From: a virus
Lineage: Duplodnaviria; Heunggongvirae; Uroviricota; Caudoviricetes
Virus record (IMG/VR): IMGVR_UViG_646311924_000011
Direction: 5' to 3' (one strand)
Length of the DNA stretch: 61,742 bases
How positions within the stretch are numbered: the stretch's first letter is position 1; every line of letters starts with the position of its first letter. A program made the position numbers. Positions 15,001 through 18,000 of this stretch are shown here, piece by piece.

Positions 15001-18000
15001 AAAATGCGTCAGAATGCGTTTGAGGAGATTTTAAGAAATGAGTACGATAGCTGAGCTTGTCAGGGCTAATTTTCGTGAAGAGTTGGTGCGTTGGTATCGG
15101 TATCGTTCATCGTCCAGTTTGCCGCTTGATGAGTTGTATGAGCATTCACCTGCCGCACGACGCTATCCGCGTGACCGTGTTCTTCGACGGTTGTTCAAAC
15201 TCAACAATGAGTTTCAGCGCAACAGAATTATCCGGAGTCTGGATTTAAAGTGAAGGAGTGAGCATGAGCGACCTATCATTAACCCAGCCAAAGCTAAAAG
15301 AATGTCCGTTTTGCGGCGGTAATGCTCGTCTGTGGGTTGAGGCCGGAATAAATATTGATGTGTGGGGCTATGCAGAATGTGACCTCTGTGAAGCCAGGGG
15401 GGCATGGGCACCATCAGTTGCTGCGGCGGCTGAAAAATGGAACCGGAGAGCAGGAGATGAAGCAAACCTTTCTGCTTCGCAACGAAGCAATCAGAAATAA
15501 CGCCATAGACGCCATTCTCTCACTACCCATCGACGACAAGTCACCCCACGAAGTCCACGTTAAAGAACCCAAGCGCAGCAAAGCGCAGAATGACCGTATG
15601 TGGCCGATGCTGAACGATGTTTCGCGTCAGGTGCTATGGCATGGTCAACGGCTGGCGCCGGAAGACTGGAAAGACCTGTTCACTGCCCTGTGGCTTAAGA
15701 CCAAAAAACTGGAGCAACGAAGTGTGCCTGGTATCGACGGTGGCGTTGTCATGCTTGGCGTGCGTACCAGCAAAATGCGGAAGGCCAGCATGACTGAGCT
15801 TATCGAAATCATGTTCTGGTTCGGCTCAGAGCGCAACGTGCGGTGGAGTGATGACTCCCGGCGAGAGTATGAATGGTCACAACGAAAAGGTAGGGCTGCA
15901 TGACTATCAAATCAAATACGCCAGCACACGACAAAGACTGCTGGCAAACGCCGCTTTGGCTTTTTGATGCACTGGATATTGAGTTTGGATTCTGGCTGGA
16001 TTCGGCAGCGAGCGACAAAAATGCTCTGTGTGCTCACTGGCTAACTGAGGCCGACGACGCGCTCAATTCTGAGTGGGTAAGCCACGGTGCAATCTGGAAT
16101 AACCCACCGTACAGCAATATCAGGCCGTGGGTGGAAAAAGCCGCTGAGCAGTGCATACAACAGCGACAGACGGTAGTTATGCTTGTACCAGAGGATATGT
16201 CAGTCGGATGGTTCAGCAAGGCTCTGGAGAGTGTTGACGAAGTTCGTATTATCACTGATGGACGGATTAATTTTATCGAACCATCGACAGGGCTGGAGAA
16301 GAAGGGAAACAGCAAAGGTTCCATGCTGCTGATTTGGCGACCGTTCATCAGTCCTCGACGGATGTTTACTACCGTATCCAAAGCGGCATTGATGGCGATC
16401 GGGCAGGGCGTCAGAAGGGCGGCATGAGGCGACAGCAAAGAAGCATCACCGACATCATCTGCGAAAACTGCAAATACCTTCCAACGAAACGCTCCAGAAA
16501 TTTAGTTTTGAGCAGAATACCATGATGTCAGTGCAAGGGGGAGAAAGTCTCCTCATTATCTGATTCGCAATTTACGTGCATATTTAAATATTGCACGTTA
16601 CAACGTGCATGTGTATGATTGACTTATCAATCACAACACGAGATATGCTCATGAAAAATGATGATGTTAGTGGGAAGGCCAAAGGCGGTAAGGCACGCGC
16701 GGCAAAAATGACAGCAGAGCAAAGAAAAGAATCCTCAAGAAAGGCTGTTGCCGCAAAAAAAGAAAAAGCTTTATTGCCCGTATCTGCGAATGAGGGAAAG
16801 TTAAAGATCGGTGATGCGGAATTAGATGTCGCGGTTCTCGAAAATGGACGGCGTATCATATCACAAGCTTCTGTTTTTAAAGCATTTGGCCGACCACAAA
16901 GAGGGGGTAGAGCACCTCAAGAAGAGGGGGTGATCAATATGCCCGCTTTTATGGATGCTGCAAACCTTAAAAAATATATAAATCAAGATGTTATGGGTGT
17001 GATCAATAAGGTCAAATACAAGACGATTACTGGCTCCGTCCAGGAAGGTTATGACGCATCCATAATACCTCTTGTCTGCGATGTTTATTTAAAGGCAAGA
17101 GAGGCAGGCGCTATCACCAGGCCAAACCAGTTAGAGACAGCCAAGAAAGCTGAAATTCTGGTGCGCTCATTAGCTAAAGTCGGAATAATAGCGCTTGTTG
17201 ATGAAGCGACGGGGTACCAGCGAGATAGAGAAAAAGATGCGCTCGCCAAAATACTCGAGGCCTTTGTCGCAAAGGAAATTCAACCTTATATTACAACATT
17301 TCCTGCTGATTATTATGAAGAGCTTTTCAGGTTAAGGGGCTTAGAATACCCGCCGGAAAATCCCCGCTTCCGGCCTCAGTATTTTGGCGTTTTGACAAAT
17401 GATATCGTCTACAAGAGATTGGCACCAAACATCCTTGAGGAGCTTAAAAAGCAGAACGTAAAGGCCTCAAAAGGTACAAAGTTGTTTCAGGGGCTGACGC
17501 CAAATATTGGATATCAAAAATTAAGAGAGCATCTGTCATCAACCGTTACGATTATGAAGCTATCTAACGACTATTCAGATTTTATTGCAAAAATGAATCG
17601 CCTGCATCCAAGGTTTGAGGATGTGAAAACAGACGAACTGGATGATTCAGACAAGTAACAGTAACCCACCTTCAGGTGGTTTTTTTGTACAAATCCTTCA
17701 GAGTAAGTTTACCTCCTTCACTGCATTACTACTGACCATTGACAACTTAACAAACCCAGCTTCGGCTGGGTTTTTTATTGCTGAATTTTCAATGTGAGAG
17801 GACATGACAATGAATGAGCTGATAAATAGCAATGCCATCAAAATGACAAGCATTGAAATCGCTGAGTTGGTGGGAAGCCAACACGGTAATGTCAGAATAT
17901 CAATAGAACGTCTGGCAAAGCGTGGGGTGATTCAACTTCCTTCAATGCAAAAAGTTGAAAATAAACAAACAATTAGCCCTAACAAATTCACAAGCGTGTA

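What the first reader, a model, noticed from the sequence alone, without database searches (positions are those of the whole stretch)
16574..16609. Triplet of ACGTGCA/TGCACGT palindromic elements upstream of the 338-aa nin-region gene
Overlapping palindromes ACGTGCA-N11-TGCACGT and TGCACGTT-ac-AACGTGCA sit about 35 bp upstream of the 16645 start, resembling a multi-site operator. This suggests the gene and the downstream antirepressor are under a dedicated repressor rather than simple read-through from pR.
Basis: seen in the sequence. Interest (0 to 1): 0.45.

Follow-up and report, generated by a model that had tools for sequence, protein, structure and literature searches.

The report
Conserved operator-like sites before P63C gene
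Three copies of a 7-base motif sit on the probable promoter of an uncharacterised phage 933W gene, the same kind of site array precedes relatives of this gene across many bacterial phyla, and it most likely lets the gene's own DNA-binding product control its expression.

Summary
ACGTGCA (16574-80), TGCACGT (16592-98) and ACGTGCA (16603-09) are three of only four copies of the 7-mer in 61.7 kb.

The window is Stx2 phage 933W. The gene downstream is L0095, a P63C-domain protein. It lies in a 1.2-kb low-GC cassette (16502-17708) that interrupts ninE.

The sites are kept exactly, at fixed distances from the start codon, in relatives with 57-90% protein identity. Those relatives sit in quite different phage contexts, and DNA homology to them begins at site 1. 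In 80 distant loci the related motif TGCA[AC]G[CT] is about 30-fold enriched in the 100 nt before the gene.

Site 2 supplies an invariant -35-like TTGCAC. Site 3 fills the 17-nt spacer before TATGAT.

The only gene that always travels with the sites is the P63C gene. Its N-terminal domain gives weak fold matches, mostly to Bro-N and winged-helix DNA binders.

Best reading: an autoregulated operator array at a moron promoter. The array is shown; the binder and its effect are inferred.

Control of the downstream roi gene is not supported, because roi lies outside the cassette and behind two terminators.

In distant bacteria the same gene and sites are carried as cargo by IS1-family insertion sequences.

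The parts
16574..16580 (-). Site 1: ACGTGCA on the + strand, that is TGCACGT read on the - strand. It lies about -77 from ATG 16651, upstream of the -35.
   Evidence: It is kept at -77 to -80 in 9 of 10 enterobacterial relatives with at most 1 mismatch. DNA homology to relatives in other phage contexts starts here, at 16571-74.
16581..16591 (.). AT-rich 11-nt spacer (tatttaaatat) between sites 1 and 2. It sits where an UP element would lie.
   Evidence: Its length (10-11 nt) and AT-richness are kept in relatives, but its sequence is not. This argues against a specific site such as an NsrR-type box.
16592..16598 (+). Site 2: TGCACGT. With T16591 it forms the -35-like hexamer TTGCAC (16591-96).
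   Evidence: TTGCACG is invariant in all 10 relatives, at -59 to -63.
16603..16609 (-). Site 3: ACGTGCA. It lies inside the 17-nt promoter spacer and forms an 18-nt perfect palindrome with site 2 (16592-16609).
   Evidence: It is kept at -48 to -52 in relatives with at most 1 mismatch.
16614..16619 (+). Predicted -10 hexamer TATGAT, 17 nt after TTGCAC. The inferred transcription start is near 16626.
   Evidence: Read from the sequence. The consensus scan did not list it because TTGCAC matches only 3 of 6 positions of TTGACA. One natural variant reads TATAAT here (L098). This is a prediction, not a mapped start.
16616..16633 (.). 933W-specific palindrome TGATTGA-N4-TCAATCA. It occupies the place where relatives carry a fourth site (TGCACGT or TGCTCGT at -31 to -34).
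   Evidence: It is unique in the window and absent from relatives. Its role is unknown.
16631..16642 (+). Conserved leader block TCACAACACGAG just before the start codon. It includes a weak GAG ribosome-binding motif.
   Evidence: It is nearly invariant in relatives with 48-90% protein identity.
16651..17658 (+). P63C-domain protein gene (933W L0095), 335 aa from ATG 16651. The alternative start ATG 16645 gives 337 aa. RefSeq starts it at 16609, inside site 3.
   Evidence: Pfam P63C, E 1.1e-23. PHROG 2384. Homologs of 320-345 aa start at the position equivalent to 16651. The N-terminal domain model has pLDDT 86 and gives weak Bro-N and winged-helix fold hits.
17666..17686 (+). Intrinsic terminator CCACCTTCAGGTGG followed by T7, directly after the stop codon and inside the cassette.
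16502..17708 (+). The whole inserted cassette (moron). It replaces the 3' part of ninE. Phages such as phi419 and Min27 carry an Ant cassette at the same spot.
   Evidence: Homology to phi419 ends at 16501 and resumes at 17709. NinE matches only profile positions 1-26 of 58. GC is 42.3% against 50.9% on the left and 47.3% on the right.

Best explanation
The three elements are protein-binding sites (consensus WTTGCACGTW) that overlap the private sigma-70 promoter of a self-contained moron cassette. The cassette consists of the site array, the promoter, the P63C gene and a terminator, and it was inserted into ninE of phage 933W. Site 2 provides the -35 (TTGCAC), site 3 fills the spacer, and site 1 lies one AT-rich turn upstream. 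The most likely binder is the cassette's own product, which has a Bro-N-like N-terminal DNA-binding domain joined to a helical P63C domain. On this reading the array is an autoregulatory operator, probably repressive, that holds expression at a set level wherever the cassette lands, including in the lysogen.

Shown: the sites exist, are non-random, are conserved in sequence and position, are tied to this gene family across phyla, and are placed on promoter-like hexamers; the cassette is modular.

Inferred: the promoter and its start site, the identity of the binder, and the sign of regulation.
For: 1. The cluster is not chance.

2. There is a phylogenetic footprint. In nine relatives with 48-90% protein identity the sites stay at about -78, -60 and -50 from the ATG while the spacers change. 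Five relatives have a fourth site at -31 to -34.

3. DNA homology to relatives in other contexts begins exactly at site 1, at 16571-74. Those contexts differ widely: after cI (L085), in immI mnt-arc-ant regions (L087, L091, L092), and inside tail or baseplate modules in either orientation (L089, L090).

4. Across 80 genome loci with 39-70% protein identity from many phyla, TGCA[AC]G[CT] occurs 1.43 times per 100 nt just before the gene, against about 0.05 elsewhere. An exact 7-mer is repeated at least 3 times in 46 of 79 upstream regions, against 43 of 790 control segments. The motif changes by lineage: TGCACGT, TGCACGCA or ATGCAAGCAT.

5. Among 2.9 million viral contigs the triple-site pattern occurs 23 times. 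In 22 cases a P63C gene follows; the 23rd is cut by the contig end.

6. No other gene co-occurs with the sites. In the IS-borne copies the transposase's own binding targets, the terminal repeats, do not contain the motif.

7. The N-terminal domain model (pLDDT 86) hits DNA-binding folds in the PDB: Dachshund and Ski DHD, DdrC, Swi6 APSES and excisionases. In BFVD it hits mostly Bro, Bro-N, KilA, 'repressor domain' proteins and Mx8 p63.

8. The anatomy is that of a moron. GC is 42% against about 50% in the flanks. A terminator follows the gene. Relatives have a terminator just before site 1.
Against: No experiment bears on the question. No transcription start, expression or binding data were found.

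The -35 matches the consensus at only 3 of 6 positions, and the consensus scan did not call the promoter.

The -10 is not at a strictly conserved sequence in relatives.

Co-inheritance of the sites and the N-terminal coding region is expected from physical linkage alone, so it does not prove that this protein is the binder.

The arrangement in 933W (site orientations left, right, left, with 18- and 11-nt centre spacings) does not fit a single simple dimer-binding geometry.
Confidence: 0.6

Rival explanations
1. The sites are an operator for a separate trans-acting regulator, either a dedicated repressor encoded elsewhere in 933W or a host transcription factor.
For: The array has operator-like anatomy on a promoter. 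The P63C protein has no sequence-detectable DNA-binding domain.
Against: The site array follows the P63C gene into unrelated phage backbones, into IS elements and across phyla, with no other shared gene. A host factor would have to keep the same specificity in Proteobacteria, Actinobacteria, Planctomycetes and Chloroflexi. No second operator copy exists in the phage. No LexA-type box is present. The AT-rich spacer is not conserved in sequence.
Confidence: 0.13
2. The sites are cis targets for the protein's main activity and are not primarily a transcriptional operator. Examples would be a self-recognition or self-immunity element (as the aba DNA element is for the KilA-N protein BstA), a nucleation site for spreading on DNA, or a control region for the neighbouring transposase in the IS-borne copies.
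For: The gene-plus-sites unit behaves as a mobile unit on phages and on IS1-family elements. The C-terminal domain is very strongly conserved, with an invariant DEATGYQ block, which suggests an activity beyond DNA binding. The number of sites varies from 3 to 5, and L084 carries a 30-nt duplication that adds two.
Against: The sites always lie in the 150 nt before the gene, overlapping -35 and -10-like elements and often the start codon. That is what a promoter operator looks like. This reading does not exclude autoregulation; the two could coexist.
Confidence: 0.17
3. The inverted repeats act as nucleic-acid hairpins. They could be a terminator or attenuator for pR read-through (alternative pairings 1:2 and 2:3), a terminator for antisense transcription, or an RNase processing site.
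For: RNA folding gives -26.4 kcal/mol, z = -3.2, with the 2:3 hairpin formed. On the minus strand of relatives, the 2:3 hairpin followed by the T-rich spacer is flagged as terminator-like.
Against: No U-run follows the hairpin on the + strand, and the scan does not call it in 933W on either strand. There is no Rfam match. Sites 1 and 4 are unexplained by this reading. In most of the family the sites are 20-30 nt apart and lie between divergent genes, so at least some cannot be transcribed. What is conserved is the site sequence, not merely the ability to pair.
Confidence: 0.06
4. The cluster is chance, or a scar from mosaic recombination, and has no function.
For: The cassette sits at a recombination hot spot, and the 70 nt to its left are a patchwork.
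Against: The statistics of the cluster argue against chance. So does conservation across very distant relatives.
Confidence: 0.01

Closest known systems
Multi-site phage operators that overlap promoters (lambda/933W OR1-3; P22 immI Omnt/Oarc controlling ant)
   Same: Several short, related sites in dyad arrangement cover the -35, the spacer and the upstream region of one promoter. They belong to a small regulatory module in a temperate phage.
   Different: The sites are 7-10 nt long and alternate in orientation at uneven spacing, unlike 15-21-nt dyads. No HTH or ribbon-helix-helix repressor gene accompanies them. The presumed binder is the 335-aa product of the regulated gene itself. The module is not part of the lysis-lysogeny switch.
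Morons of lambdoid phages (autonomous promoter-gene-terminator insertions; from my knowledge of Juhala et al. 2000)
   Same: The cassette is inserted between conserved backbone genes and is absent from close relatives. It has a lower GC content and a terminator after the gene. The same cassette occurs at unrelated positions in other phages.
   Different: Here the promoter carries a conserved site array that is retained across phyla, and the same unit is also carried by IS1-family elements. This has not been described for classical morons.
Bro-N / KilA-N family DNA-binding proteins with P63C or ANT/KilA-C tails (Mx8 p63; from my knowledge of Iyer, Koonin and Aravind 2002)
   Same: The C-terminal P63C domain matches by HMM. 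The N-terminal beta/alpha domain gives its annotated fold hits mainly to Bro-N, KilA and 'repressor domain' proteins, including Mx8 p63.
   Different: The N-terminal domain is not recognised by the Pfam Bro-N, KilA-N or Rha models. A conserved basic N-terminal helix (GGKARAxxMTxEQR) precedes it. No specific DNA target has been reported for any P63C protein as far as I could find.
BstA abortive-infection protein and its aba DNA element (from my knowledge of Owen et al. 2021)
   Same: Both are prophage accessory genes whose product has a KilA-N or Bro-type DNA-binding domain, coupled to a cis DNA element that travels with the gene. One relative (L085) sits directly after cI, where bstA sits.
   Different: aba lies inside the bstA coding sequence and is not a repeated short motif on the promoter. 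There is no sequence or Pfam relation. No defence phenotype is known here, and there was no PADLOC hit.
IS1 InsA/transposase regulation
   Same: In distant bacteria the P63C gene and its sites lie inside IS1-family elements, next to the transposase promoter region.
   Different: In classical IS1 the regulator InsA binds the terminal inverted repeats. Here the sites are internal, unrelated to the repeats (which start GGTAGTG), and persist in phage copies that have no transposase.

Membership tests
Promoter-overlapping operator array | Two or more related sites clustered non-randomly | tested here: met
   Three of the four window copies lie within 36 nt. The palindrome is unique in the window.
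Promoter-overlapping operator array | The sites overlap the core promoter elements of the regulated gene | tested here: inconclusive
   TTGCAC, a 17-nt spacer and TATGAT can be read, with site 2 as the -35 and site 3 in the spacer. TTGCAC is invariant in relatives. The consensus scan does not call this promoter, and no transcription start has been mapped.
Promoter-overlapping operator array | The sites are conserved in orthologous regions while their flanks diverge | tested here: met
   Searches cover the enterobacterial relatives. Searches cover the 80 distant loci.
Promoter-overlapping operator array | A cognate DNA-binding regulator is identified and shown to bind | not testable with these tools
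   The candidate is the P63C protein, supported by co-occurrence and by weak fold similarity to DNA binders. Binding needs EMSA, footprinting or ChIP.
Moron cassette | An insertion between conserved backbone genes that is absent from close relatives | tested here: met
   Homology to phi419 breaks at 16501 and 17709. ninE is truncated. Only 48 of 5,426 complete E. coli genomes carry the region.
Moron cassette | Its own terminator and a base composition distinct from the flanks | tested here: met
   The terminator is at 17666-79 followed by a T-run. GC is 0.423 against 0.509 and 0.473 in the flanks.
Moron cassette | Transcription that is independent of phage early and late transcription (expressed in the lysogen) | not testable with these tools
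   No expression data were found.
Intrinsic terminator or attenuator | A GC-rich hairpin immediately followed by a U-run on the transcribed strand | tested here: not met
   It is not called on either strand in 933W. The tail after the 2:3 hairpin is UGUGUAUGAUU.
Known RNA family (Rfam) | A covariance-model match | tested here: not met
   There is no match in 16300-17900 at the element. Only chance-level hits lie elsewhere.
P63C family (PF10546), the gene product | An HMM match above the gathering threshold | tested here: met
   84.1 bits against a cutoff of 26.1, residues 203-293 of the ORF read from ATG 16645. All 53 aligned homologs match.
Bro-N / KilA-N DNA-binding domain (N-terminal part of the product) | A sequence-profile match to Bro-N, KilA-N or Rha | tested here: not met
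   There was no such Pfam hit in any of the 53 members at E up to 5.
Bro-N / KilA-N DNA-binding domain (N-terminal part of the product) | Fold similarity | tested here: inconclusive
LexA (SOS) box or NsrR-type site | CTGT-N8-ACAG, or a conserved AT-rich dyad | tested here: not met
   No CTG-N10-CAG occurs in 16400-16700. The AT-rich spacer sequence is not conserved in relatives.
IS1-family insertion sequence (applies to distant relatives, not to 933W) | An IS1-type DDE transposase, terminal inverted repeats starting GGnnnTG, and 8-9 bp target duplications | tested here: met
   This holds for loci L027, L033, L056, L073 and L078. In 933W there is no transposase and no flanking repeats. Only three scattered GGTnnTG heptamers occur.

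The most novel reading that the evidence does not exclude
P63C proteins are a cross-phylum family of sequence-specific DNA binders. On this reading they travel as a minimal, self-regulating unit of operator array, promoter and gene, on IS1-family transposons in many phyla and as morons in temperate phages such as Stx2 phage 933W. The site array would then be more than a housekeeping operator. It would be the element through which the protein recognises 'self' DNA, for example to control the neighbouring transposase, to give immunity or exclusion against related elements, or to act as a lysogen-expressed defence or addiction function.
Probability: 0.2. Interest if true: 0.7.

Novelty: new member of a known kind. 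Interest (0 to 1): 0.5.

Why it matters
L0095 is an unstudied gene of the reference Shiga-toxin phage 933W. P63C is a large family (more than 7,600 hits) with no known function or DNA target.

The comparative result gives this family a concrete, testable handle: a defined recognition motif, a probable autoregulatory circuit and a defined promoter fragment.

It also shows that the gene and its sites form a portable unit. Temperate phages of enterobacteria and IS1-family transposons of many phyla share that unit, which hints at a selfish or protective function.

For Stx phage biology, it means the nin region of 933W carries an independently controlled gene that may be expressed in lysogens. It also means roi is not part of that unit.

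Tried and rejected
- Literature. Searches for 'P63C', 'P63C domain' with phage, L0095, the protein accessions, the motif strings, and Bro-N/KilA-N/P63C found nothing on this gene or motif. Iyer et al. 2002 and Clerget and Boccard 1996 are not held. The search on 933W, antirepressor and roi only confirmed that other Stx phages carry Ant at this spot. My recollection that ISPa14 carries a passenger gene was wrong: it is a plain 788-bp IS1.
- Close relatives. Near-identical Stx phages and E. coli prophages give no useful divergence, being at least 99% identical. More distant homologs had to be fetched.
- A first motif count allowing one mismatch per 7-mer was too noisy, because controls gave 4-5 copies. 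Exact k-mer counts and a degenerate pattern replaced it.
- Defence systems. PADLOC gave only a chance-level hit.
- Rejected readings: an intrinsic terminator or attenuator and any Rfam family; LexA or NsrR boxes; a second operator copy elsewhere in the phage; and transposase binding sites, because the IS terminal repeats are unrelated to the motif.
- Covariation. I considered testing covariation between site class and N-terminal residues. I did not run it, because physical linkage of the sites and the N-terminal coding region would give the same signal.
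Full report
**Where we are.** The window is Stx2-converting phage 933W: region 16400-17900 is 100% identical to AF125520 and NC_000924. The finding lies in the nin region. The gene order there is NinB, Dam-type methylase (15900-16427), a ninE stump (16424-16525, matching NinE profile positions 1-26 of 58), a 335/337-aa P63C-domain gene (933W L0095), roi (ANT/KilAC antirepressor-like, 17804-18532), ninG, ninH and Q.

**The observation.** The sequence is tttACGTGCA-tatttaaatat-TGCACGT-taca-ACGTGCA-tgtgTATGAT. The two overlapping inverted repeats are exactly as described.
- The 7-mer, counted on both strands, occurs four times in 61.7 kb, fewer than the 9.1 expected from shuffles. Three of the four lie within 36 nt.
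- The 18-nt palindrome has no other match with up to three mismatches, against 0.02 expected.
- A weight matrix built from the sites of relatives ranks these three as the best three hits in the window, scoring 15.4-17.5 against 13.8 for the next.

**The gene and its start.** The product matches Pfam P63C (E 1e-23) and PHROG 2384, a family of unknown function. Homologs are numerous (more than 7,600 hits) and are mostly 320-345 aa long. The alignment puts the start at ATG 16651 (MKNDDVSGKAKGGKARA...) or, at most, at 16645. RefSeq's start at 16609 lies inside site 3, adds 14 residues with no counterpart in homologs, and is probably wrong.

**The cassette.**
- Against phage phi419, which carries an Ant gene at this position, homology stops at 16501 and resumes at 17709. 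So 16502-17708 is an inserted cassette that cut off the 3' part of ninE.
- Its GC content is 42.3%, against 50.9% on the left and 47.3% on the right.
- A strong intrinsic terminator (CCACCTTCAGGTGG followed by T7) follows the stop codon at 17666-79.
- A second terminator at 17752-73 belongs to the shared backbone in front of roi.

This is the anatomy of a moron. It also means roi is outside the unit and shielded from its promoter.

**Comparative evidence, close range.** Stx phages and E. coli prophages are nearly identical here, and only 48 of 5,426 complete E. coli genomes carry the region. I therefore fetched relatives with 48-90% protein identity. They sit in very different places:
- directly after a cI-type S24 repressor (L085);
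- in mnt-arc-ant immI regions (L087, L091, L092);
- inside tail or baseplate modules, in either orientation (L089, L090).

DNA homology between 933W and these loci begins at 16571-74, which is at site 1, and ends at the stop codon.

In all of them the sites are kept, with at most one mismatch, at about -78, -60 and -50 from the ATG. The 10-11-nt AT-rich spacer and the 4-5-nt spacer change in sequence. Five relatives have a fourth site (TGCACGT or TGCTCGT) at -31 to -34. 933W has a private palindrome, TGATTGA-N4-TCAATCA (16616-33), in that place instead.

Several relatives have a terminator immediately before site 1. One E. coli prophage (L084) carries a 30-nt tandem duplication that gives five sites.

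In 2.9 million viral contigs the triple-site pattern occurs 23 times. A P63C gene follows in 22 cases, and the remaining hit is cut by the contig end.

**Comparative evidence, long range.** Eighty genome loci with 39-70% protein identity were examined. They come from Proteobacteria, Actinobacteria, Planctomycetes, Chloroflexi, Bacteroidetes and other phyla. Nearly all show three or four copies of a short motif in alternating orientation just before the gene. The last copy often overlaps the start codon. The motif is usually ATGCAAGCAT/ATGCTTGCAT, in some lineages TGCACGCA, and in some TGCACGT as in 933W.
- An exact 7-mer is repeated at least three times in 46 of 79 upstream regions, against 43 of 790 control segments.
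- The pattern TGCA[AC]G[CT] occurs 1.43 times per 100 nt in the last 100 nt before the conserved N-terminal GG codon, 0.41 in the preceding 100 nt, and about 0.05 elsewhere across the 7-kb loci.

The array is therefore a property of the gene family and not of 933W or its host.

**Promoter.**
- Site 2 together with the preceding T gives TTGCAC (16591-96), which is invariant in all ten enterobacterial sequences.
- Seventeen nucleotides later comes TATGAT (16614-19).
- Site 3 fills the spacer. Site 1 lies beyond an AT-rich stretch placed where an UP element would be.
- One natural variant reads TATAAT at the -10 (L098).
- The simple consensus scan does not list this promoter, because TTGCAC matches TTGACA at only three positions.
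- The -10 in relatives is AT-rich but variable.

The promoter is a reasoned prediction, not a result.

**Who binds.** The only gene that always accompanies the sites is the P63C gene itself.

About a quarter of the distant loci have a divergent IS1-family transposase, with an HTH and weak DDE_Tnp_IS1 matches. Those units are real insertion sequences of 2.2-2.9 kb. Their terminal repeats begin GGTAGTG and they are flanked by 8-9 bp target duplications. The terminal repeats, which are the expected transposase binding sites, do not resemble the motif. The phage copies have no transposase at all.

The protein's N-terminal 165 residues model well (pLDDT 86): a basic helical hairpin followed by a beta/alpha domain. 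The fold matches are weak but consistent.
- In BFVD the annotated hits are overwhelmingly Bro, Bro-N, KilA and 'repressor domain' proteins, and they include Mx8 p63, the family's namesake (E 0.01-0.3).
- Pfam finds no DNA-binding domain by sequence.

My conclusion, with moderate confidence, is that the product binds its own upstream sites.

**Rivals.**
- A separate phage or host regulator is unlikely, because nothing else co-travels with the sites and the motif is kept across phyla. There is also no second operator in the phage.
- A hairpin role has some basis. The 2:3 stem folds, and on the minus strand of relatives it is flagged as terminator-like. However, no U-run follows it on the sense strand, there is no Rfam match, and the rest of the family has widely spaced sites that do not form such hairpins.
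- A non-transcriptional role of the sites, such as self-recognition, immunity or control of the transposase, cannot be excluded and could coexist with autoregulation.

The multi-site operator idea is supported and considerably strengthened. The 'dedicated repressor' is probably the gene's own product. Control of roi is not supported.

**Novelty.** Operators on moron promoters are a known kind of thing. This regulator family, its motif, its conservation across phyla and its carriage by IS1-family elements have not, as far as I could find, been described.

Noticed in passing
L027 1985-4309; L033 1978-4338; L056 1603-4492; L073 2053-4268; L078 2079-4284 (and about 15 more of L002-L081): In distant bacteria (Planctomycetes, Mycobacterium, Nitrospira, Alphaproteobacteria and others) the P63C gene and its site array are cargo of 2.2-2.9-kb IS1-family insertion sequences. 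These have a divergent IS1-like transposase, terminal repeats starting GGTAGTG, and 8-9 bp target duplications (for example GCCGGACAA in L033 and CGGCATTT in L073). The site array lies in the intergenic region between the transposase and P63C genes.
   Followed up: partly
window 16502-16547: The leftmost 46 nt of the cassette are 87-91% identical to a piece of the immI region of P22-like Salmonella phages (VSe13, SEN22 and others). There it lies just upstream of a short 'antirepressor' ORF and includes its AAGGGGGAG ribosome-binding site. It looks like a relic of an earlier ant-type cassette at this hot spot.
   Followed up: partly
window 16609-16650: RefSeq (NP_049495, and WP_000335902 in E. 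coli genomes) starts the P63C gene at ATG 16609, inside site 3. Homolog alignments support ATG 16651 or 16645, so the annotated N-terminal 14 residues are probably not translated.
   Followed up: yes
window 16616-16633: A perfect palindrome, TGATTGA-cttA-TCAATCA, overlaps the predicted -10 and the start-site region. It is unique in the window and absent from relatives, which carry a fourth TGCACGT/TGCTCGT site there. It may be a second, 933W-specific control site.
   Followed up: partly
L084 about 2560-2640 (E. coli UTAK-8 prophage): A 30-nt tandem duplication of atatttaaatatTGCACGTtacaACGTGCA gives five sites where 933W has three, in an otherwise identical cassette.
   Followed up: no
L098 (IMG/VR UViG_2563366903_000025), position equivalent to window 16617: A single-base variant turns the predicted -10 hexamer TATGAT into the consensus TATAAT.
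   Followed up: no
proteins P0016, P0018, P0023 compared with the window protein (alignment A1): Some homologs combine a C-terminal P63C half almost identical to the enterobacterial type with an N-terminal domain of the Pseudomonas type. The two halves of the gene therefore recombine independently.
   Followed up: no
window 17642-17797: A 51-aa ORF (PHROG 22161, annotated in some records) overlaps the end of the P63C gene and spans both intrinsic terminators. It may not be a real gene.
   Followed up: no
L085 1630-3517: In one relative the P63C cassette sits directly downstream of a cI-like S24 repressor, on the same strand. This is the position that lysogen-expressed exclusion genes occupy in other lambdoid phages.
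   Followed up: no
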